From UHGV virus genome UHGV-0246545: a DNA stretch of 22,114 bases; one strand, given 5' to 3'. The notes beneath the pieces were generated by a model that was not told the DNA's origin, ran no database searches, and saw only the letters and a program-made list of their open reading frames with translations. Shown here piece by piece: positions 1 to 22,114 of this stretch (the first letter of the stretch is position 1; each line of letters opens with the position of its first letter). Origin of the DNA: a virus. The position numbers were made by a program, and so were the translations under genes.

Positions 1-89
1 ATTTTGAACTTTTGCTTTGCCACGGAACGGTCTGCGTTGTCGGGAAGATGCGTGATCTGATCCTTCAACTCAGCAAAAGTTCGATTTAT

Positions 90-695
90 TCAACAAAGCC
101 TGACATTTGTTGAAAAACTCGGCTTACATCGGTCTAATTCATCAATTATAATTACGATTTTTTGATTTTTTGATATACTTTCGATGCAGGATTTAAGTGA
201 ATTTATGTTTTTCTCTGAGTCCATATGGTCTTCAAGCAAATTTTCAATAGTCCCATCTATTGCTGCATTGCTTGCTTTCTTCATCGCATCTTGGAATTCT
301 TCGGCAACTTCACTAGCCTCCTGTCGTAAAAACCAACCTGCACCAGCTTTTAGTACCGTTTTTAAACCAAAGCGAATTGCAGGAAGAGATCTCTTAATGA
401 AGTGTTGTTTTTCTTCCTCAGGCAAAATGCTGGCAATTGCAGAGGTTATGAGAAGTAATGGAGATTCTGCATGATCCCCTTTAAAGGCATCAATATAAAC
501 AACTTTAGATTCAGTTTCTTGCTCAATAATGAGATTTTTCAGTTTGATACTAAATTCTGTTTTCCCTGTTCCCCATGCGCCGTCTATTACCAGTGGTGAA
601 ATGTCTGCCTCTGGTTTTAGCAACTTGATGATATTTTCAGCGATGTTTCTTCGTTGGAACTCGTCACGTTCAGTGAAAGATAGTGTATCTAACAT
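90..695 (-). CDS. KAP-family P-loop NTPase, N-terminal ATPase region only; ORF ends 11 codons after Walker B (probably truncated or interrupted)
   Basis: Walker A GAWGTGKT (aa 39-46) and KAP-type Walker B IIIDELDRC (aa 182-190) in the translation. ATG at 693-695 (reverse complement), TGA at 90-92. Visibly AT-rich and antisense to the late operon. Confidence 0.7.
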   Translation of the reverse strand: MLDTLSFTERDEFQRRNIAENIIKLLKPEADISPLVIDGAWGTGKTEFSIKLKNLIIEQETESKVVYIDAFKGDHAESPLLLITSAIASILPEEEKQHFIKRSLPAIRFGLKTVLKAGAGWFLRQEASEVAEEFQDAMKKASNAAIDGTIENLLEDHMDSEKNINSLKSCIESISKNQKIVIIIDELDRCKPSFSTNVRLC

Positions 696-818
696 AATAT
701 AAACCTATTAACTCCTACAGTAAAAAACGAATAATACGACTTTGGGATTAAAAATCATTAACGCGGTCCGCAAAAATTCTTGTAATCTGTTAAGAGTGGT
801 TACTTCGCCACACAGCTT

Positions 819-848
819 AAACCCGCCGTCGAGCGGGTTTTGTCGTTT
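819..848 (+). terminator. Intrinsic terminator-like hairpin (stem ACCCGC 821-826 / GCGGGT 833-838) followed by T-rich tract; possible tR'-like late-operon terminator upstream of the holin
   Basis: Perfect 6-bp GC-rich inverted repeat with 6-nt loop, then TTTTTGTCGTTTTT. About 150 bp upstream of the holin start on the same strand. Confidence 0.45.
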
Positions 849-991
849 TTGTTGCTGGGGATTCGTTGGGCCTGGCCTATCCCGCAGTTATCCATTGGTT
901 CGGCTCTTTGACGTTTCCGCTTCTGATTTGCGGTACATGATGTTCCCTCATTTTGCACCTGCTGTATCAGCGAGGTGAGAGATAACTACAA

Positions 992-1318
992 ATGCCTCAT
1001 AACCCAAATACCTGGTTGGAGTTGGTCCAGAGCTGGTGGCGTGGAGACACACCGCTGGGCGCAGTGATTATGTCGATTGTTATGGCTGGTTTACGTATTG
1101 CCTATTTTGGCGGTGGTGGGGGCTGGAAACGAAAAACACTCGAAATTCTACTCTGTGGCGCTCTGACGCTGACTTTTGCATCCGCTCTTGAGTATGTCGG
1201 ATGGCCTAAATCACTTTCTGTTGCCATTGGTGGTGGTGTTGGGCTGATCGGTGTCGATGCTATTCGTGGGGCAGCAATGCGAGTAATCGGTAACAAATTT
1301 GGTAGCTCGAAGGAGTAA
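992..1318 (+). CDS. Holin, lambda S-like class I (three hydrophobic segments)
   Basis: 108-aa ORF directly upstream of an R-like endolysin. Three hydrophobic stretches and a charged C-terminus, similar in layout and partial sequence to lambda S as I recall it. GAGGTGAGA Shine-Dalgarno-like sequence upstream. Confidence 0.85.
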   Translation: MPHNPNTWLELVQSWWRGDTPLGAVIMSIVMAGLRIAYFGGGGGWKRKTLEILLCGALTLTFASALEYVGWPKSLSVAIGGGVGLIGVDAIRGAAMRVIGNKFGSSKE

Positions 1319-1798: not shown

Positions 1799-2243
1799 GC
1801 TAGTTATCGCTGCTTTCTTCGTTACTATTATTGGTTCTTTCATCTGGTCAGCGAATCATTACCACAATCAAGCCATTGAATACAAAAAGCAGCGCGACGA
1901 AAACGCTATGGCATTACATTCGGCTATGGCGACGATCTCTGATATGCAGAAGCGTCAACGTGACGTAGCTGAACTTGACGCCAGATACACAAAGGAGCTT
2001 GCTGATGCTAACACGACTCTCGAAAGTCTCCGTACTGATGTCTCTGCTGGTCGTAAGCGCTTGCAAATCGCCGCCACCTGTGCAAAGTCAACGACCGGAG
2101 CCAGCGGCATGGGCTATGGAGAAAGTCCAAGACTTACAGCTGATGCTGAACTCAATTATTACCGCCTCCGAAGTGGGATCGACAAGATAACTGCACAGGT
2201 TAACTATTTGCAGGAGTACATCAAGACACAGTGCCAGAAATGA
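1782..2243 (+). CDS. Rz: Rz-like i-spanin (inner-membrane spanin)
   Basis: 153 aa with N-terminal TM segment (LVIAAFFVTIIGSFIW) and coiled-coil periplasmic part; …QRDVAELDARYTKELADA… resembles lambda Rz. Start overlaps the endolysin 3' end. Confidence 0.88.
   Translation: MKLSYKLVIAAFFVTIIGSFIWSANHYHNQAIEYKKQRDENAMALHSAMATISDMQKRQRDVAELDARYTKELADANTTLESLRTDVSAGRKRLQIAATCAKSTTGASGMGYGESPRLTADAELNYYRLRSGIDKITAQVNYLQEYIKTQCQK
2005..2190 (+). CDS. Rz1: Rz1-like o-spanin (outer-membrane lipoprotein), embedded in Rz in the +1 frame
   Basis: ATG at 2005 preceded by AGGAG (1993-1997). Signal peptide with lipobox-like LVVSAC followed by proline-rich KSPPPVQSQRPEP; wholly nested within Rz as in lambda. 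Confidence 0.82.
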   Translation: MLTRLSKVSVLMSLLVVSACKSPPPVQSQRPEPAAWAMEKVQDLQLMLNSIITASEVGSTR

Positions 2244-2315: not shown

Positions 2316-3179
2316 ATGGAAAGAGGTGTGGTATTTAGTGCATGCGAATTACTTAAAACCGAGGATGGAAAAGGCATCCGTACAGGTAAATGGATTAGTC
2401 AATTAGAAATAAACTATCTATGTCTTTATTGGGATAAACTAGTTTCACCCACTAATAATATTATACATACAGCATTAAATAACGAGGATGAATTAGAAAA
2501 ATGTGGATTGCTAACCAGACCTGTATATAGACATCATGGTTGTTTTGATGGCCAATATATGGCTGATTTTTATGCTGAAACTCATGCCAAAACAATAGAT
2601 ATACTTAGGCATGCGGATTCTTCTGTCGATTGGCGCATGCATTTTTTAAGTGACCAAATAAACTTGGTGCCTGAATTATCTAGAACCTCAGAAGTGATAC
2701 GTTTTGAGCTAGCAAATTTATTACCCGTTCCCACAGAAGATGTGCACCTACATGATATTCTTGATTTCAAGGAAAGAAGAAAACCTGAATTAATCGCTTT
2801 ACATGAATATCTTGATGAGCTTTACTTGGAAATAAAACGTTCTGGTGATATCAATCTTCAGAAAGCAAAAGCTCTTTCTAATCTTAAACAAGCAATAAAG
2901 GATATTGAACGCTTAAATTGTGAAGTGTGGAAAAGTCCAATAAAATTTAGCATCTCTACTTCCTTTGAGTTCGATTTTTCACAAATATTTAGTCTGGCGG
3001 GAACTGTTTTATCTATGTCAGTAGATTATCCTTATAATGTTATTGGAGGGGTAAGTAGTTTTGTTTATTTTTTGGGAGGATGCATAAAAATAAAGCCACA
3101 ATTTCAACAAGTGTTATCATTAGGTAATGATAAATTAGTTTACATAAGCAAAGGAAAATCGGAGGGTATTATTTCCTGA
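2316..3179 (+). CDS. Hypothetical protein, 287 aa, AT-rich moron; no recognisable family
   Basis: Long ORF with good AGGAG Shine-Dalgarno and an in-frame stop 18 nt upstream of the ATG. Visibly lower GC than flanking phage genes. Helical or coiled-coil-like central region and hydrophobic C-terminal stretch; no signal peptide. Confidence 0.7.
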   Translation: MERGVVFSACELLKTEDGKGIRTGKWISQLEINYLCLYWDKLVSPTNNIIHTALNNEDELEKCGLLTRPVYRHHGCFDGQYMADFYAETHAKTIDILRHADSSVDWRMHFLSDQINLVPELSRTSEVIRFELANLLPVPTEDVHLHDILDFKERRKPELIALHEYLDELYLEIKRSGDINLQKAKALSNLKQAIKDIERLNCEVWKSPIKFSISTSFEFDFSQIFSLAGTVLSMSVDYPYNVIGGVSSFVYFLGGCIKIKPQFQQVLSLGNDKLVYISKGKSEGIIS

Positions 3180-4226: not shown

Positions 4227-5956
4227 GCCGGAAATCTTACCCCAACGTAAATGCAGCCAATCAGTATGCCCGTGATGTCGTGCGCGGAAAGATTGTGGCC
4301 TGCCAGTTTGTGATTCAGGCCTGCCAGCGCCATCTTGATGACCTGATGGCGGAAAAAAGTAAGTCGTTTCGTTACCGCTTCGACAAGGACCTGGCTGAAC
4401 GGGCCGCGAAATTTATTCAGCTGTTGCCGCACACCAAGGGTGAGTGGGCATTCAAACGGATGCCCATCACGCTGGAGCCGTGGCAGCTATTTGTGATCTG
4501 CTGTGCGTTTGGCTGGGTCAATAAAGGCACCCGGTTGCGCCGCTTCCGGGAGGTGTATACCGAAATCCCCCGTAAGAACGGCAAATCAGCAATCTCTGCC
4601 GGTGTTGCCCTGTATTGTTTTGCCTGTGATAACGAGTTTGGCGCGGAAGTGTATTCCGGTGCCACGACAGAGAAACAGGCGTGGGAAGTCTTTCGCCCGG
4701 CGCGACTGATGTGTAAACGCACACCCATGCTGACGGAAGCGTTCGGGATTGAGGTTAACGCCTCAAACATGAACCGTCCGGAGGATGGCGCGCGGTTTGA
4801 ACCGCTGATCGGTAACCCTGGTGATGGTTCATCACCCCACTGTGCGGTGGTGGATGAATATCACGAGCACGCCACCGATGCGCTTTATACCACGATGCTT
4901 ACCGGGATGGGGGCGCGACGTCAGCCACTGATGTGGGCCATCACCACCGCCGGGTACAACATTGAGGGGCCGTGCTACGACAAGCGGCGGGAAGTTATCG
5001 AGATGCTCAACGGTTCGGTACCCAACGATGAACTGTTCGGGATCATCTATACCGTTGATGAAGGTGACGACTGGACCGACCCGCAGGTGCTGGAAAAAGC
5101 CAATCCAAATATTGGCGTGTCGGTTTATCGCGAATTTTTGTTAAGTCAGCAGCAGCGTGCTAAAAATAACGCCCGTCTGGCAAACGTCTTTAAAACAAAA
5201 CACCTCAATATCTGGGTGTCGGCGCGTTCGGCGTATTTCAACCTGGTGAGCTGGCAGAGCTGCGAGGATAAATCACTGACCCTTGAGCAGTTCGAGGGGC
5301 AGCCGTGCATTCTGGCCTTTGACCTGGCGCGTAAGCTGGATATGAACAGCATGGCGCGACTTTATACCCGCGAGATTGACGGTAAAACGCATTACTACAG
5401 TGTGGCCCCGCGTTTCTGGGTACCGTATGACACGGTGTACAGCGTCGAGAAAAATGAAGATCGCCGGACAGCCGAACGCTTTCAGAAATGGGTGGAAATG
5501 GGCGTTCTGACTGTTACCGCTGGTGCGGAGGTGGATTATCGCTACATCCTCGAGGAGACCAAAGCGGCGAACAAAATCAGCCCGGTCAGTGAGTCACCCA
5601 TCGACCCCTTCGGGGCGACCGGGCTGTCGCATGACCTTGCTGATGAAGACCTGAACCCCATCACCATCATTCAGAACTACACCAACATGTCCGATCCGAT
5701 GAAAGAGCTGGAAGCGGCGATTGAATCGGGGCGCTTTCATCATGACGGCAATCCCATCATGACCTGGTGTATCGGCAACGTGGTCGGCAAAACCATTCCG
5801 GGTAACGATGATGTGGTGAAGCCTGTCAAGGAGCAGGCGGAAAACAAAATCGATGGTGCGGTTGCACTGATTATGGCGATCGGTCGGGCAATGCTCAAAG
5901 AACCCGACGATTTCCTCTCATCTCTTGATCCGGACGATGCTCTCTTAATTCTATGA
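4223..5956 (+). CDS. terL: Terminase large subunit (HK97-type)
   Basis: 577 aa. Walker A-like PRKNGKS and Walker B-like AVVDEYHEH ATPase motifs, with a C-terminal nuclease-type region. Position between terS and portal. Confidence 0.93.
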
Positions 5957-6114
5957 AATCACTAATTGCTGATGTTATCGGGCTGGCTGGTTTTGGCCTG
6001 CTTACGTGCGGGTTTTACCTGCAGTTTGGTATGGCTCCGGCTCTGATGCTGTCCGGCGGTTTACTGCTGGTGGGCGCACTGGCTATGGCCAGAAGGGGGA
6101 CGCGTGCTGCTTGA
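5953..6114 (+). CDS. Small hydrophobic protein (53 aa), putative membrane protein between terL and portal
   Basis: Hand-translated: [57 protein letters not shown] overlap with the terL stop. Below the ORF-track length cutoff. Two hydrophobic segments. Confidence 0.4.
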
Positions 6115-7330
6115 TGCTCTGTTCAGAAGTAAATCACTGGAGAATCCTTCCACCCCGATAACCGGGGATGCCGTTGATACTGATGGGCTGTTCCGGGCAG
6201 ACGTTTATGTCAGTCCTGAAACTGCGATGAAACTGGCTGCGGTGTATTCCTGTATCTATGTCCTGTCTTCCAGCCTTGCCCAGATGCCGTTGCATGTTAT
6301 GCGCAGGCACAATGGGAAGGTTGAGCCCGCACGCGATCATCCGGCGTTTTATCTGGTTCATGATGAGCCCAATACCTGGCAAACCAGTTACAAATGGCGC
6401 GAACTGAAGCAACGTCACATCCTTGGCTGGGGGAATGGGTATACCTGGGTGAAACGTAATCGTCGCGGTGAAGTCATATCCCTGGATTGCTGTATGCCGT
6501 GGGAAACGACGTTGATGAATACTGGTGGCCGATACACCTACGGTTTGTACAACGAATATGGGGCGTTTGCGATCAGCCCCGACGATATGATCCACATCCG
6601 TGCGCTGGGTAATAATCAGAAGATGGGGCTGAGTCCGATTATGCAACATGCCGAAACAATAGGCATGGGGATGAGCGGTCAGAAATACACAGAAAGCTTC
6701 TTCAGCGGTAATGCCCGTCCGGCGGGGATAGTATCCGTTAAAAGCGGACTCAATAAGGACAGCTGGGGCTGGCTTAAAGATCAGTGGCAGAAGGCATCGC
6801 AGGCGTTACGCAGCCAGGAAAACAAAACCATGCTGCTGCCAGCCGATCTGGATTACAAGGCACTGACTGTGTCGCCAGTTGACGCTCAGATCATTGACAT
6901 GATGAAACTGAACCGTTCAATGATTGCCGGTATTTTCAATATTCCTGCGCACATGATTAATGACCTCGAAAAAGCCACCTTCTCCAATATTTCTGCGCAG
7001 GCGATTCAGTTTGTCCGCTACACGATGATGCCGTGGGTGACGAACTGGGAGCAGGAGCTTAACCGTCGCTTGTTTACCCGCGCTGAGTTAGCCGCCGGGT
7101 ATTACGTCAGGTTCAATCTGACGGGGCTTTTACGCGGAACTCCACAGGAGCGCGCGCAATTCTATCACTTCGCTATTACCGATGGATGGATGAGCCGTAA
7201 TGAGGCCCGTGCATTCGAGGATATGAATCCGGTTGAAGGGCTAGATGAGATGCTGGTAAGCGTGAATGCTGCTAACCCGGCAGGAGATTTTAAGCCCCCA
7301 AAAAATGATGAGGGAAAAACCAATGAATGA
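6104..7330 (+). CDS. Portal protein (HK97 family)
   Basis: 408-aa ORF following the terminase; sequence character of HK97-family portal proteins. GTG start at 6104 with AGGGGG Shine-Dalgarno 4 nt upstream; start uncertain. Confidence 0.88.
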   Translation: MLLDALFRSKSLENPSTPITGDAVDTDGLFRADVYVSPETAMKLAAVYSCIYVLSSSLAQMPLHVMRRHNGKVEPARDHPAFYLVHDEPNTWQTSYKWRELKQRHILGWGNGYTWVKRNRRGEVISLDCCMPWETTLMNTGGRYTYGLYNEYGAFAISPDDMIHIRALGNNQKMGLSPIMQHAETIGMGMSGQKYTESFFSGNARPAGIVSVKSGLNKDSWGWLKDQWQKASQALRSQENKTMLLPADLDYKALTVSPVDAQIIDMMKLNRSMIAGIFNIPAHMINDLEKATFSNISAQAIQFVRYTMMPWVTNWEQELNRRLFTRAELAAGYYVRFNLTGLLRGTPQERAQFYHFAITDGWMSRNEARAFEDMNPVEGLDEMLVSVNAANPAGDFKPPKNDEGKTNE

Positions 7331-10455: not shown

Positions 10456-11012
10456 AACTGACGCCTGTTATTGCTGCGCTGCGTGCCCGCTGCCCGTATT
10501 TTGAAAACCGGGTGGCAGGCGCGGCACAGTTCAAAAATCTGCCGGAGGTCGGAAAGCTGAGACTCCCGGCGGCGTATGTGGTACCGGGTGATGACTCTCC
10601 GGGAGAAAACAAAAGCCAGACCGACTACTGGCAGGAGCTGAAAGAGGGCTTCTCCGTGGTTGTCATACTGAGTAACGGGCGTGATGAGCGCGGTCAGTTT
10701 GCTTCGTATGATGTGGTGGACGATGTCCGGAAGATGCTCTTTAAGGCCCTGCTGGGCTGGAACCCGGAGGCGTGCGGTAACCCGATTACCTATGACGGCG
10801 GCACGCTGCTGGATCTGAATCGTCATGAGCTGATTTATCAGTTCGATTTTTCGGTCATCAGCGAGCTGACTGAAGGCGATACCCGCCAGCAGGATGATCT
10901 GAACAGTCTGGATGAACTGCAAACGCTGGCGATTGATGTTGATTATCTCGAGCCCGGTAACGGGCCTGACGGCGATATCGAACATCACACCGAAATAACC
11001 CTTCCTTCCTGA
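10452..11012 (+). CDS. Mu gp37-like virion protein (putative tail terminator or sheath-proximal protein)
   Basis: 186-aa ORF positioned upstream of the tail sheath gene as in Mu-like tail modules. Family call is from recall of Mu gene order, not a computed search. Confidence 0.5.
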   Translation: MKLTPVIAALRARCPYFENRVAGAAQFKNLPEVGKLRLPAAYVVPGDDSPGENKSQTDYWQELKEGFSVVVILSNGRDERGQFASYDVVDDVRKMLFKALLGWNPEACGNPITYDGGTLLDLNRHELIYQFDFSVISELTEGDTRQQDDLNSLDELQTLAIDVDYLEPGNGPDGDIEHHTEITLPS

Positions 11013-11020
11013 GAATCTTC

Positions 11021-11191
11021 ATGTTTGTGAAACCTATTAAAGGGCGGTCAGTTCCTGACCCTGCCCGCGGCGACCTTTTGCCCGCCGAAGGGCGAAATGT
11101 TGACGAGAACAACTACTGGCTGCGCCGTGAAGCAGCGGGTGATATCCGGCGCGTGAATAAAAAGGTGAATACCGATGACGATAAGCTTTAA
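11021..11191 (+). CDS. Small conserved phage protein (56 aa) preceding the tail sheath (DUF2635-like, tentative)
   Basis: Hand-translated: MFVKPIKGRSVPDPARGDLLPAEGRNVDENNYWLRREAAGDIRRVNKKVNTDDDKL. Overlaps the sheath start by 17 nt. Below the ORF-track cutoff. Confidence 0.4.
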   Translation: MFVKPIKGRSVPDPARGDLLPAEGRNVDENNYWLRREAAGDIRRVNKKVNTDDDKL

Positions 11192-12671
11192 CACCATTCC
11201 GTCGAATACGCTGGTTCCGTTGTTTTATGCGGAAATGGATAACTCGGCGGCGAATACTGCACAGGACAGCGGAGCATCGCTGCTGATTGGTCATGCCAAT
11301 AACGGTGCAGAGATTGTTGCCAACAGTCTGGTACTGATGCCGTCGGCAGACTATGCACGCCAGATTTGTGGTGCGGGAAGTCAGCTGGCGCGTATGGTCG
11401 AGGCTTATCGCCAGACCGACTCGTTTGGTGAGCTGTATGTGATTGCCGTTCCTGAATCCACAGGCGCGGCGGCAACGGTTACGCTGACGGTGACCGGGGC
11501 GGCAACCGAAACCGGCACGGTGAATGTCTATGTGGGACGTACCCGCGTGCAGGCTCCGGTGACCAACGGCGATAACGTCACGACGATTGCCAGCAGTATC
11601 AAAGATGCCATCAATGCCGTTCCGGCCCTGCCGTTTACGGCTTCATCTTCGGCAGGCGTGGTCACACTGACCGCGCGTCATAAGGGGCTTTGCGGGAATG
11701 AAATTCCTGTCAGCCTCAATTACTACGGCTTTGGTGGGGGCGAAGTGCTGCCAGCGGGCGTACAGATTGCCGTGGCGACGGGGACCGCCGGAACGGGTGC
11801 TCCGGTTCTCACCGGCGCGGTGGCTGCAATGGCGGATGAGCCGTTTGATTATATCGGCCTGCCGTTCAACGACACGGCCTCCGTTAACACGCTGGTGACC
11901 GAGATGAACGATACCAGCGGTCGCTGGAGCTATGCGCGTCAGCTGTATGGTCATGTGTATACGGCAAAGATCGGCACGCTGTCAGAACTGGTGACCGCAG
12001 GTGACCAGTTTAACCAGCAGCACATTACCCTGGCGGGGTACGAAAAAGAGACCCAGACGCCTGCCGACGAACTGGCGGCAAGCCGTACCGCCCGCGCAGC
12101 GGTGTTTATTCGCAACGATCCGGCACGTCCCACGCAGACCGGTGAGCTGGTGGGTATGCTGCCTGCGCCGAAGGGGAAACGGTTCACGATGACCGAACAA
12201 CAGACCCTGCTGTCTCATGGCGTGGCAACGGCGTATGTCGAAAGCGGGGTACTGCGCATTCAGCGTGATGTCACCACGTACAGGAAAAACGCTTACGGGG
12301 TTGCGGATAACAGCTACCTAGACAGTGAGACTCTGCATACCAGCGCGTATGTACTGCGCAAACTGAAATCCGTCATTACCAGTAAGTACGGGCGTCACAA
12401 GCTTGCCAGTGACGGTACCCGCTTTGGTCCCGGTCAGGCGATTGTCACCCCGGCGGTGATCAAAGGGGAACTGCTGGCAACCTACCGTCAGCTTGAGCGT
12501 GCGGGGATCGTGGAAAACTACGCACTGTTTAAGCAGTACCTAGTTGTGGAGCGTGATGCCAGCGATCCGAACCGCCTGAACACGCTGTTCCCGCCTGACT
12601 ATGTTAACCAGTTGCGTGTCTTTGCCGTGGTTAACCAGTTCCGTCTTCAGTATTCAGAGGAGTCCGCATAA
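11175..12671 (+). CDS. Tail sheath protein (Mu gpL-like, contractile tail)
   Basis: 498 aa, size and sequence character of Mu-like sheath proteins; immediately followed by tube and chaperone genes with TAATG-type overlaps. Confidence 0.88.
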   Translation: MTISFNTIPSNTLVPLFYAEMDNSAANTAQDSGASLLIGHANNGAEIVANSLVLMPSADYARQICGAGSQLARMVEAYRQTDSFGELYVIAVPESTGAAATVTLTVTGAATETGTVNVYVGRTRVQAPVTNGDNVTTIASSIKDAINAVPALPFTASSSAGVVTLTARHKGLCGNEIPVSLNYYGFGGGEVLPAGVQIAVATGTAGTGAPVLTGAVAAMADEPFDYIGLPFNDTASVNTLVTEMNDTSGRWSYARQLYGHVYTAKIGTLSELVTAGDQFNQQHITLAGYEKETQTPADELAASRTARAAVFIRNDPARPTQTGELVGMLPAPKGKRFTMTEQQTLLSHGVATAYVESGVLRIQRDVTTYRKNAYGVADNSYLDSETLHTSAYVLRKLKSVITSKYGRHKLASDGTRFGPGQAIVTPAVIKGELLATYRQLERAGIVENYALFKQYLVVERDASDPNRLNTLFPPDYVNQLRVFAVVNQFRLQYSEESA

Positions 12672-20954: not shown

Positions 20955-21443
20955 ATGCATCGTATAGACACGAAAACCGCGCAGAAGGATAAGTTCGGCG
21001 CGGGTAAGAACGGTTTTACCCGTGGTAACCCCCAGACCGGCACGCCTGCCACCGATCTGGATGATGACTACTTTGACATGTTGCAGGAGGAACTTTGCAG
21101 CGTGGTGGAGGCATCCGGTGCCAGCCTGGAGAAGGGGCGGCACGACCAGTTACTTATCGCACTTCGCGCGCTGCTGTTAAGCCGCAAAAATCCGTTTGGC
21201 GATATCAAATCGGACGGCACGGTGAAAACGGCTCTCGAAAACCTTGGTTTGGGAGAAGGCTCTGCATTACCTGTTGGTGTGCCTGTTCCGTGGCCCTCAG
21301 CCACTCCGCCAACAGGCTGGCTAAAATGCAACGGAGCAGCTTTTTCTGCTGAAGAATACCCGGAACTGGCAAAGGCTTACCCGACAAATAAATTGCCTGA
21401 TTTACGTGGCGGCTTTATTCATCAGGCAGCCCTCACGATATAA
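20955..21443 (+). CDS. Tail fibre protein, N-terminal (constant) portion; ORF ends after only 162 aa
   Basis: N-terminus [47 protein letters not shown] is characteristic of enterobacterial prophage side tail fibres. Contains the fibre motif [44 protein letters not shown] and stops 8 codons later. Confidence 0.8.
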
Positions 21444-21473
21444 TTAAAGGCAATGTTACGAGGACGGTTTTCG
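21390..21473. repeat. Tail-fibre junction repeat, copy 1 (A+B parts contiguous)
   Basis: A part 21390-21420 matches 21533-21563 at 26/31 positions by hand alignment. B part (21415-21473) is clearly similar to 21701-21759. Confidence 0.7.
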
Positions 21474-21496
21474 TTTGCAGTTGGAACAATTCTTGA

Positions 21497-21750
21497 AGCA
21501 TCAAGGCCAATCACTTTTGGGTACCAACGTTAAAATTACCTGATTTACGCGGTGAGTTTATTCGCGGCTGGGATGATGGGCGAGGCGTGGATGCGGGAAG
21601 GGGCATCTTAAGCATACAGGGGTGGTTAACTGGAAGTCATTATCATAATATTCGGTCATGGCCTGCCTGTACGGCAATAAGATCATTATTTAATATCGCG
21701 TTATTCATTATGCGGCTCTCACAATATAATTGAAGGCAATATTGCGTGGA
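21497..21750 (+). pseudogene. Tail-fibre fragment without start codon (…KLPDLRGEFIRGWDDGRGVDAGRGILSIQG…), probable pseudogene remnant
   Basis: Open frame bounded by stops, with no ATG near its 5' end. Contains the canonical tail-fibre motif DLRGEFIRGWDDGRGVDAGR. It is out of frame with the downstream B-part copy (about 143 nt extra relative to copy 1). Confidence 0.4.
21533..21563. repeat. Tail-fibre junction repeat, A-part copy 2
   Basis: AAATTACCTGATTTACGCGGTGAGTTTATTC versus AAATTGCCTGATTTACGTGGCGGCTTTATTC at 21390-21420. Both encode KLPDLRG(G/E)FI. Confidence 0.7.
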
Positions 21751-21759
21751 CGGGTTTCA
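21701..21759. repeat. Tail-fibre junction repeat, B-part copy 2
   Basis: TTATTCATTATGCGGCTCTCACAATATAATTGAAGGCAATATTGCGTGGACGGGTTTCA versus 21415-21473. Encodes …IHYAALTI-stop, paralleling the …IHQAALTI-stop end of the fibre ORF. Confidence 0.7.
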
Positions 21760-21902
21760 TTCCCCCCTGAGGACTCCGTTCTGTATTGACTGGAAAATTT
21801 ACCATTAATCGCCCCTTCGCGGACGGCGTTATCTGTCGACAACAGACTATCCCCCCCTCTGTCATTTGGCACCAATACCGTGTTATCCCACGCGTCCCAT
21901 GA

Positions 21903-22114
21903 CCGAATATATATATTTCAGAGTCAACTGAATATCTTGCTGTGGGTGTTGGTATTCCGGCTAATTCCTGTTTAGATGCCCCAGGCGCACATAAATCTGG
22001 CTATGCTATTCGCCGTTCGGAGGATTTAAATTCATGGGAGTATGCGCCAGACCATCGTGGTGAAACCGTCTATAGCACTGACACGGGAAACACCGAAGAA
22101 ATCACGGCGCTGGG
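21903..22114 (+). CDS. Partial ORF running off the window end; possibly a tail-fibre variable segment or tail-fibre-associated gene
   Basis: 70 codons open to the window edge (…GYAIRRSEDLNSWEYAPDHRGETVYSTDTGNTEEITAL…). No in-frame ATG; a GTG at 21942 is possible. Phage-like base composition. Confidence 0.3.

What the first reader, a model, noticed from the sequence alone, without database searches (positions are those of the whole stretch)
1..695. KAP-family P-loop NTPase fragment encoded antisense in the interval upstream of the holin; ends abruptly after Walker B
Seen in sequence: minus-strand ORF 90-695 has the diagnostic KAP signatures, Walker A GAWGTGKT (aa 39-46, nt about 558-581) and the KAP-type Walker B IIIDELDRC (aa 182-190, nt about 126-152). 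It is AT-rich and antisense to the phage late genes. The ORF stops at TGA (90-92) only 11 codons after Walker B, too early for a complete P-loop NTPase core. The same frame then stays open for the remaining 29 codons to the window edge (INRTFAELKDQITHLPDNADRSVAKQKFK…), which fits either a nonsense-interrupted longer gene or chance (roughly a 1 in 4 chance event for random sequence). Established knowledge: the KAP family (named for Kidins220/ARMS and PifA) includes PifA of the F plasmid, which mediates exclusion of phage T7, so a phage-exclusion role is plausible for a prophage-borne KAP gene. Inference: a moron-encoded KAP NTPase, possibly pseudogenised, sitting in the Q-to-S accessory hotspot of a lambdoid late region.
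Basis: partly seen in the sequence, partly recalled or inferred. Interest (0 to 1): 0.65.

Follow-up and report, generated by a model that had tools for sequence, protein, structure and literature searches.

The report
IS903-disrupted prophage KAP NTPase gene
The "truncated" KAP-family NTPase is the first 198 codons of a normal 443-codon prophage gene, a catalogued but untested anti-phage candidate, that has been cut in two by an IS903-type insertion sequence, so this is an ordinary insertional knockout and not a nonsense mutation or a new short protein.

Summary
The minus-strand ORF 90-695 (201 aa) carries Walker A at 558-581 and Walker B at 126-152, and it matches Pfam KAP_NTPase (E=1.3e-39), but only profile positions 1-170 of 293.

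Window 1-100 is the end of a 1,057-bp IS903-group (IS5-family) element. Its 18-bp terminal inverted repeat lies at 83-100. The TGA at 90-92 sits inside that repeat, and the "still open" frame is the start of the transposase ORF.

A public scaffold identical to the window over 10,695 nt shows the whole IS, flanked by a 9-bp duplication (CAAATGTCA). Next come the missing 3' part of the gene and then antiterminator Q. Removing the IS and one repeat copy restores a 443-aa ORF.

All 50 complete E. coli genomes that carry this gene have it uninterrupted at about 1,332 nt. The best 120 homologues are mostly 440-447 aa.

The intact protein matches PADLOC candidate PDC-S20 end to end, has no strongly hydrophobic (transmembrane-like) segment, and is structurally closest to RdrA of RADAR. 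The same Q-to-holin slot holds other cargo in related phages.

Verdict: a real but ordinary IS-inactivated cargo gene. Interest is low.

The parts
1..100 (-). Terminal 100 nt of a 1,057-bp IS903-group (IS5-family) insertion sequence. It contains the start of the transposase ORF: GTG at 21-23 in the ENA gene call, or TTG at 66-68 in the RefSeq annotation of another copy.
   Evidence: It is 100% identical over 100 nt to IS903B-annotated copies in 1,948 of 5,426 complete E. coli genomes. The annotation of one copy is shown in L002. The full element is seen in L003 10596-11652, with a 307-aa transposase. NCBIfam scores the transposase as IS5-family NF033579 at 354 bits against a cutoff of 140.
83..100 (-). 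The 18-bp terminal inverted repeat of the IS (GGCTTTGTTGAATAAATC on the minus strand). The apparent stop codon TGA at 90-92 lies inside it.
   Evidence: The same 18-mer is present in inverted orientation at the other end of the element (L003 11635-11652).
101..109 (-). One copy of the 9-bp target-site duplication (CAAATGTCA on the minus strand).
   Evidence: The identical 9-mer directly flanks the other IS end in L003.
101..695 (-). The native 5' part of the KAP-family NTPase gene: 595 of 1,332 nt, codons 1-198 plus one base.
   Evidence: It lies within window 101-1000, which is 100% identical to intact alleles such as E. coli XH990 WP_063118234.1. It matches Pfam KAP_NTPase and PADLOC PDC-S20 model positions 4-200 of 450.
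90..695 (-). The chimeric 201-aa ORF as it now reads: 198 native residues, then R-L-C and a stop supplied by the IS end.
   Evidence: It was called as a gene on the public scaffold.
558..581 (-). Walker A motif, GAWGTGKT (aa 39-46).
   Evidence: G39, W41, G42, T43, G44 and K45 are invariant in 64 homologues.
126..152 (-). Walker B motif, IIIDELDRC (aa 182-190).
   Evidence: D185, E186, L187, D188, R189 and C190 are invariant in 64 homologues.
696..991 (.). Divergent intergenic region between the KAP start and the holin. It contains a terminator-like hairpin with a T run on the + strand at 819-840 (possibly the late terminator tR'; this is inference) and weak promoter-like sites on both strands.
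   Evidence: The region is shared with phages SfII and SfIV from about window 650-659 onward.
992..1318 (+). Lambda-family holin, the first late lysis gene (context only).
   Evidence: PF05106.

Best explanation
Window 101-695 (minus strand) holds the first 198 codons of a 443-codon, single-gene prophage cargo cassette. The cassette encodes a KAP-family P-loop NTPase with no strongly hydrophobic segment, so probably soluble (PADLOC candidate defence family PDC-S20, PHROG 8614).

The gene was split by transposition of a 1,057-bp IS903-group (IS5-family) element, whose last 100 nt form window 1-100. After codon 198 the reading frame runs into the IS terminal inverted repeat, picks up three foreign codons (R-L-C) and stops at a TGA inside the repeat. 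The frame that stays open to the window edge is the beginning of the transposase ORF, which happens to be in the same phase.

The insertion made a 9-bp target duplication and left the distal 245 codons intact 1,066 nt away, followed by a hairpin and the convergent antiterminator Q gene. It is therefore a recent, simple knockout.

The truncated product lacks two of the five core beta strands, the C-terminal helical half, and 17 of the 51 family-invariant residues, including R302 and R309. It should be inactive; this is inferred.

The intact protein is most likely a lysogen-expressed immunity factor. I infer that it is an ATP-dependent, oligomerising switch of the RdrA/Cdc6-like fold that responds to an infecting phage. 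Neither the defence role nor the effector step has been demonstrated.
For: Shown for the break point:
- Identity to intact alleles begins exactly at window 101 (100% over 101-1000), and no complete E. coli genome spans the junction.
- Window 1-100 is 100% identical to ends of IS903B copies.

Shown for the insertion:
- Scaffold L003 is identical to the window over 10,695 nt.
- It contains the full 1,057-bp IS with perfect 18-bp inverted repeats, a 307-aa IS5-family transposase and 9-bp direct repeats CAAATGTCA on both sides.
- Deleting the IS and one repeat copy restores a 443-aa ORF that differs from XH990 at 3 of 1,332 nt.

Shown for normal gene length:
- All 50 of 5,426 complete E. coli genomes with the gene match the whole 1,332-nt query in a single aligned piece.
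- Most of the best 120 homologues are 440-447 aa.
- Pfam covers profile positions 1-292 of 293 in the intact protein, against 1-170 of 293 in the window copy.

Shown for family and fold:
- PDC-S20 matches at E=2e-177 over model positions 4-449 of 450, and phrog_8614 at E=7e-189.
- The AlphaFold model has pLDDT 81.9.
- No 19-residue window exceeds hydropathy 1.6.

Context that supports a cargo or defence role:
- The gene lies between Q and the holin in E. coli and in the 92%-identical Salmonella orthologue, and next to Q in the 65%-identical Citrobacter orthologue.
- A 44%-identical paralogue lies between the cI repressor and the integrase in P2/186-like prophages.
- SfII carries candidate system PDC-M53A/B antisense in the same slot.
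- Other KAP NTPases have been shown experimentally to defend against phage (PMC13552941; PifA as summarised in PMC13001434).
Against: - The defence role of PDC-S20 is untested. PDCs are described as untested candidates found by being embedded in known systems (bioRxiv 10.1101/2024.01.29.577857), and no paper in the library mentions PDC-S20.
- No effector domain can be recognised in the 443-aa protein, so the mechanism is conjecture.
- No close homologue occurs in 50,697 deposited phage genomes. The best true phage match is 26% identical.
- The sequence beyond the window comes from a metagenome scaffold, not from a finished genome.
- The junction 40-mer was not found in GTDB representative genomes or in JGI metagenomes, so the insertion is documented only in the window and in one scaffold.
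Confidence: 0.93

Rival explanations
1. A nonsense mutation (for example TGG to TGA) interrupted a longer KAP gene, and the downstream open frame is the continuation of that gene.
For: The frame stays open for 29 codons after the TGA.
Against: The sequence stops matching intact alleles at 100/101, nine bases before the TGA, not at a single base. The 29 codons (…VAKQKFK) are the start of the IS transposase ORF, and they have no Pfam KAP signal. The true continuation in intact alleles (IETIKHIFDINNVFFILVTNT…) is found 1,066 nt further on in L003.
Confidence: 0.01
2. A genuine short KAP-like protein of about 200 aa.
For: Gene callers do call a 201-aa product. A search with the 198-aa fragment returned many proteins of 110-350 aa.
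Against: Every named hit is labelled partial. The two checked (P0001, P0005) simply run off contig ends in native sequence. The full-length search gives mostly 440-447 aa. All 50 complete-genome copies match the full 1,332-nt query. The last three codons and the stop of the 201-aa ORF are IS sequence. The model shows that strands at 211-217 and 246-249, and the C-terminal domain, would be missing.
Confidence: 0.01
3. Assembly artefact: the IS-to-gene junction is a chimeric join made by an assembler at a multicopy repeat, and the gene is intact in the organism.
For: IS903-type elements are highly repeated. The extended sequence is a metagenome scaffold. The junction is absent from every other collection searched.
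Against: Both IS ends are joined to the two halves of the same gene, with a perfect 9-bp direct repeat, which is the target duplication expected for IS903. Excising the IS restores the ORF exactly. A random chimera would not produce this (chance of a 9-mer match is about 4e-6). The window and the scaffold are two different records, since the window runs about 864 nt past the scaffold end, and they agree over the 10,695 nt compared.
Confidence: 0.04
4. The insertion is not neutral decay but was selected: loss of a costly or autotoxic immunity NTPase, or a reversible off state of a defence gene in a prophage hotspot.
For: The allele looks recent: both halves are otherwise intact and the duplication is perfect. 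Abortive-infection-type NTPases such as PifA are reported to harm the cell when triggered (as summarised in PMC13001434).
Against: It is a single allele seen only in the window and one scaffold. All 50 complete E. coli genomes with the gene have it uninterrupted by any IS. There are no fitness data.
Confidence: 0.1

Closest known systems
PADLOC phage-defence candidate PDC-S20 (single-gene KAP NTPase); RefSeq 'KAP family NTPase' WP_063118234.1; PHROG 8614
   Same: The restored protein matches the PDC-S20 model end to end (E=2e-177, positions 4-449 of 450) and phrog_8614. The window's 595 nt are identical to annotated RefSeq alleles.
   Different: The window copy keeps only model positions 4-200 and is interrupted by an IS. 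The family itself has no experimental validation (bioRxiv 10.1101/2024.01.29.577857).
PifA of the F plasmid (KAP-family NTPase, T7 exclusion by abortive infection)
   Same: Both have a KAP NTPase domain without transmembrane helices and are carried on a mobile element. The PADLOC PifA model matches residues 7-252 (E=2.8e-18).
   Different: Only the N-terminal third of the PifA model (13-255 of 720) is matched. This protein is 443 aa with an unrelated C-terminal half. The trigger and phenotype are unknown.
RdrA ATPase of the RADAR defence system (PDB 8fnt, 8fnu, 8hr8)
   Different: Sequence identity is 11-16%. RdrA is about 800 aa and works with the deaminase RdrB (the RdrA-RdrB complexes are listed; that RdrB is a deaminase is my own knowledge). 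No partner gene is present here: the neighbours are Q and the holin.
Experimentally validated KAP NTPase defence proteins (EF_KAP and three metagenomic KAP fusions, PLoS Biol 2026, PMC13552941)
   Same: These are single proteins with a KAP NTPase domain followed by a region of unknown function. Defence requires Walker B and the C-terminal region.
   Different: EF_KAP has transmembrane helices and a 322-aa C-terminal region, and comes from Firmicutes. No sequence relationship beyond the KAP domain was tested here.
IS903 / IS903B (IS5 family) insertional inactivation
   Same: The element is 1,057 bp with 18-bp terminal inverted repeats, a 9-bp target duplication and a 307-aa DDE transposase.
   Different: The copy is 94.4% identical to one RefSeq IS903B copy and 99.3% identical to copies on Klebsiella plasmids, so it is an IS903-group isoform and not that exact reference.

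Membership tests
KAP family P-loop NTPase (Pfam PF07693) | Profile match above Pfam's gathering score | tested here: met
   The fragment scores 136.6 bits and the intact allele 239.2 bits, against a cutoff of 20.
KAP family P-loop NTPase (Pfam PF07693) | Walker A (GxxGxGKT) and KAP-type Walker B (hhhhDELDR) | tested here: met
   GAWGTGKT is at aa 39-46 and IIIDELDRC at aa 182-190. The core residues are invariant in 64 homologues.
KAP family P-loop NTPase (Pfam PF07693) | Complete NTPase domain present in the window copy | tested here: not met
   Only profile positions 1-170 of 293 are present. Model strands 211-217 and 246-249, and 17 of 51 invariant residues, lie beyond residue 198.
KAP family P-loop NTPase (Pfam PF07693) | Transmembrane helices associated with the NTPase domain (a feature of a subset; PifA lacks them) | tested here: not met
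   The highest 19-residue Kyte-Doolittle mean is 1.53, and no window exceeds 1.6. This is not required for membership (PMC13001434).
PADLOC PDC-S20 | Full-length match to the PDC-S20 HMM as a single-gene unit | tested here: met
   PDLC04956 matches at E=2.1e-177 over 4-449 of 450 for the intact allele. The neighbours are Q and the holin only.
PADLOC PDC-S20 | Demonstrated anti-phage activity | not testable with these tools
   PDCs are stated to be untested candidates (bioRxiv 10.1101/2024.01.29.577857). No paper mentions PDC-S20.
PifA (F plasmid) | Full-length similarity to PifA (model of about 720 positions) | tested here: not met
   Only model positions 13-255 of 720 are matched, and the protein is 443 aa.
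QatA (qatABCD) | NCBIfam equivalog score and qatBCD neighbours | tested here: not met
   NF041923 scores 34.2 bits against a cutoff of 600. There are no QueC-like or TatD neighbours.
Tmn / YobI transmembrane NTPase | Two transmembrane helices inside the P-loop domain, and a tmn HMM match | tested here: not met
   No tmn model appears among the PADLOC hits at E<=0.01, and there is no hydrophobic segment.
RADAR RdrA | Ring ATPase of about 800 aa encoded next to the adenosine deaminase RdrB | tested here: not met
   There is fold similarity only. The protein is 443 aa and has no deaminase neighbour.
IS903 group, IS5 family | DDE transposase of the IS5 family | tested here: met
   NF033579 scores 354 bits against a cutoff of 140. 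Pfam DDE_Tnp_1 and DDE_Tnp_1_5 also hit.
IS903 group, IS5 family | About 1.06 kb element with 18-bp terminal inverted repeats and a 9-bp target duplication | tested here: met
   The element is 1,057 bp, has GGCTTTGTTGAATAAATC at both ends in inverted orientation, and is flanked on both sides by CAAATGTCA.
Lambdoid Q-to-S cargo gene (moron) | Located between antiterminator Q and the holin, with foreign base composition | tested here: met
   Searches show the location. GC is 0.371 against 0.518 for the window. The slot holds different cargo in SfII, SfV and mEp460.
Lambdoid Q-to-S cargo gene (moron) | Its own promoter and terminator | tested here: inconclusive
   A 10-bp-stem hairpin lies between the convergent stop codons of Q and KAP in L001. 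The only minus-strand promoter-like site upstream ends one base from the ATG, and the number of such sites is no higher than in shuffled sequence.

The most novel reading that the evidence does not exclude
PDC-S20 could be a genuine single-protein anti-phage system. In that reading, a 443-aa KAP NTPase with no hydrophobic segment, an RdrA-like fold and no recognisable effector domain protects lysogens on its own. The antisense slot between Q and the holin of SfII/SfV-like prophages would then be a swap-in hotspot for such systems (PDC-S20 here, PDC-M53 in SfII), and IS insertion would be one way in which lysogens shed them. The window itself would contribute only a natural null allele.
Probability: 0.4. 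Interest if true: 0.4.

Novelty: already known. Interest (0 to 1): 0.15.

Why it matters
The finding does three practical things:
- It corrects an annotation trap. A 201-aa "KAP NTPase" ORF that gene callers accept is really a chimera of 198 native codons plus an IS end.
- It shows that window edges which coincide with repeats should be checked for IS termini before a nonsense mutation is proposed.
- It flags, at low cost, an untested candidate defence gene (PDC-S20) that recurs as prophage cargo in at least two distinct slots, together with a natural knockout allele that could serve as a control.

It does not reveal a new kind of element or mechanism.

Tried and rejected
- A homologue search with the 198-aa fragment returned only proteins of 110-350 aa. 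Every named hit was labelled partial, so the result said nothing about natural length. It was repeated with the intact allele.
- I tested whether the abundant "partial" clusters reflect recurrent IS insertions: P0001 (182 aa, 351 members, Salmonella) and P0005 (219 aa, 111 members, E. coli). Both simply run off contig ends in native sequence with no IS terminus visible, so the result is inconclusive.
- I searched for the exact junction 40-mer in GTDB representative genomes and in JGI metagenomes. The DNA is 100% identical to E. coli prophage sequence over window 101-1000.
- A sequence search of the PDB found nothing at E<=1. Only fold comparison gave relatives.
- An Rfam scan of the whole window found nothing.
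- A literature search for "PDC-S20" found nothing. The original 2004 KAP-family paper is not in the searchable library, so I cite what later papers say about it.
- The promoter scan gave no more sites than shuffled sequence, so the KAP promoter and the late promoter pR' are not assigned.
- Membership of QatA, Tmn and RdrA was considered and rejected.

Full report
**Observation**

The minus-strand ORF 90-695 exists and encodes 201 aa. Walker A (GAWGTGKT) is at aa 39-46, nt 558-581. Walker B (IIIDELDRC) is at aa 182-190, nt 126-152. The ORF ends at TGA 90-92, 11 codons after Walker B, and the same frame stays open to the window edge.

The protein matches Pfam KAP_NTPase at E=1.3e-39 (136.6 bits, cutoff 20), but only profile positions 1-170 of 293. 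The gene part is AT-rich, with GC 0.371 against 0.518 for the whole window.

**What the truncation really is**

A megablast of window 1-1000 against 5,426 complete E. coli genomes gave many hits at up to 100% identity. Every one of the 30 best rows covers 101-1000 only. Window 1-100 searched alone is 100% identical to the ends of elements annotated as IS903B or IS5-family, which are present in 1,948 genomes.

Aligning the window with an intact locus (E. coli XH990, L001) shows perfect identity from position 101 onward and no similarity before it. On the minus strand, window 83-100 reads GGCTTTGTTGAATAAATC. The same 18-mer occurs in inverted orientation 1,057 bp away on a public scaffold that carries exactly this 201-aa ORF. 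That scaffold is L003, ENA ERZ28656895 scaffold_1673. L003 is identical to the window over all 10,695 nt that can be compared.

On L003 the element spans 10596-11652. It encodes a 307-aa transposase (Pfam DDE_Tnp_1; NCBIfam IS5-family NF033579, 354 bits against a cutoff of 140). It is flanked on both sides by the 9-mer CAAATGTCA.

Removing the IS and one copy of the 9-mer restores a 443-codon ORF that differs from the XH990 allele at 3 of 1,332 nt. Beyond the restored gene lies antiterminator Q. The consequences are:
- The TGA at 90-92 lies inside the IS terminal inverted repeat.
- The last three residues of the 201-aa ORF (R-L-C) are IS-encoded.
- The "open" 29 codons (…VAKQKFK) are the beginning of the transposase reading frame. 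Its start is GTG at window 21-23 in the ENA call, or TTG at 66-68 in the RefSeq annotation of another copy.
- The two frames are in phase by coincidence.

**Normal length of the gene**

The intact gene occurs in 50 of 5,426 complete E. coli genomes. It is always chromosomal and always covers 100% of the 1,332-nt query in one aligned piece, and none of the copies is interrupted by an IS.

A database search with the intact protein found more than 2,000 relatives. Most of the best 120 are 440-447 aa and come from Salmonella, Citrobacter, Enterobacter, Klebsiella, Yersinia, Serratia and other Enterobacterales. Pfam covers the whole KAP profile (1-292 of 293) in the intact protein.

The third possibility, an assembly chimera, is made very unlikely by the perfect target duplication and the exact restoration of the ORF.

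**What is lost**

An AlphaFold model was built for the 92%-identical Salmonella orthologue, using an alignment of 64 homologues (mean pLDDT 81.9, pTM 0.77). It places the core strands at 35-38, 64-69, 180-185 (Walker B), 211-217 and 246-249, followed by an all-helical C-terminal half.

Truncation at residue 198 removes two core strands and the entire C-terminal half. It also removes 17 of the 51 invariant alignment columns, including Q221, R302 and R309. I infer that the product is non-functional.

**What the intact gene is**

PADLOC's PDC-S20 model matches end to end (E=2e-177, positions 4-449 of 450). PifA matches only over its N-terminal NTPase part (13-255 of 720, E=3e-18), and QatA matches weakly. 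NCBIfam scores QatA at 34 bits against a cutoff of 600. PHROGs places the protein in phrog_8614, function unknown.

PDC systems are 145 untested candidates that were nominated because homologues are embedded inside BREX, DISARM, type I RM or Hma systems (bioRxiv 10.1101/2024.01.29.577857). No paper in the library mentions PDC-S20.

The protein has no hydrophobic segment of transmembrane strength. This sets it apart from Tmn, now classed as YobI-family, and from EF_KAP (PMC13001434, PMC13552941).

**Genomic setting**

In E. coli XH990 the gene lies antisense between antiterminator Q and a lambda-family holin, with a 10-bp-stem hairpin between the convergent stop codons. The rest of the window encodes lysis genes, an HNH endonuclease, terminase, portal, protease and capsid (Pfam families on L003). 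It then continues with long ORFs that I did not scan; I read them as tail and baseplate genes from their order and sizes only.

The lysis region is about 90-93% identical to Shigella phages SfII, SfIV and SfV. Other occupants and settings are:
- The 92%-identical Salmonella orthologue lies between Q and the holin, and the 65%-identical Citrobacter orthologue lies next to Q in prophages with a different lysis cassette.
- A 44%-identical E. coli paralogue sits between the cI repressor and the integrase of P2/186-like prophages.
- In SfII the Q-to-S slot carries two antisense genes that match the candidate system PDC-M53A/B.
- In SfV and mEp460 the slot carries sense-strand genes. In mEp460 one of them is annotated as a DNA adenine methyltransferase.

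No deposited phage genome carries a close homologue.

**How it most likely works**

Shown: an IS903-group element transposed into codon 199 of the gene, duplicated 9 bp and split the ORF.

Inferred:
- The allele is null.
- The IS lies downstream of Q and, if the hairpin at 819-840 marks tR', upstream of the late promoter region. It should therefore not disturb the prophage's lytic genes.
- The intact protein is a lysogen-expressed NTP-driven switch that oligomerises, as RdrA and Cdc6-like ATPases do, and interferes with superinfecting phage. This is by analogy with PifA and with the recently validated KAP NTPases, in which defence needs Walker B and the C-terminal region (PMC13552941).

The effector step is unknown. 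My confidence is about 0.95 for the IS disruption, about 0.5-0.6 for a defence role, and low for any specific mechanism.

**Verdict**

The feature is real but ordinary. It is an IS-inactivated copy of an already annotated and already catalogued prophage gene. The residual interest lies in the untested PDC-S20 family and its hotspot, not in this fragment.

Noticed in passing
window 2316-3179 (+): A second AT-rich cargo gene (GC 0.337) lies between Rz and the HNH/terminase genes. It encodes a 287-aa DUF6236 protein (phrog_23128, function unknown) with no PADLOC hit.
   Followed up: partly
L004 (phage SfII) 834-2448, equivalent to the slot left of window ~650: SfII carries two antisense genes in the same Q-to-holin slot that match PADLOC candidate system PDC-M53A/B. 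Homology of SfII and SfIV to the window begins at about 650-659, inside the first 12-15 codons of the KAP gene, so the cargo-exchange boundary lies within the KAP 5' end.
   Followed up: partly
L013 (SfV) and L014 (mEp460), Q-to-S interval: These relatives hold sense-strand cargo between Q and the holin instead: two small ORFs and a 350-aa gene. The 350-aa gene is annotated as a DNA adenine methyltransferase in mEp460 and as unknown in SfV.
   Followed up: no
window 819-840 (+): An 8-bp-stem GC-rich hairpin followed by a T run lies about 150 nt upstream of the holin start. It could be the late-operon terminator tR' that Q overrides. The late promoter was not located.
   Followed up: no
L001 5238-5262: A perfect 10-bp-stem hairpin (AATACGCCCC…GGGGCGTATT) lies between the convergent stop codons of Q and the KAP gene. 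It is a candidate bidirectional terminator.
   Followed up: no
window 1975-2190 (+), inside Rz (1782-2243): An embedded ORF in another frame carries a lipoprotein-type motif (LLVVSAC) and looks like the Rz1 o-spanin.
   Followed up: no
L009-L012 (E. coli P2/186-like prophages) 5001-6332: A 44%-identical member of the same KAP family sits between the cI-type repressor and the integrase. This is a second, unrelated prophage cargo slot for the family.
   Followed up: partly
window ~21251-22114: By coordinate arithmetic the window runs about 864 nt beyond the end of the only public scaffold that carries the same IS junction (contig length 25,903). The window therefore comes from another record. 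The junction 40-mer is absent from GTDB representative genomes and JGI metagenomes.
   Followed up: partly
L015 3001-3548 and L016 3001-3656: Large clusters of "partial" KAP proteins (351 Salmonella members, 111 E. coli members) end at contig ends inside the gene. Whether hidden IS insertions cause these breaks could not be decided.
   Followed up: partly
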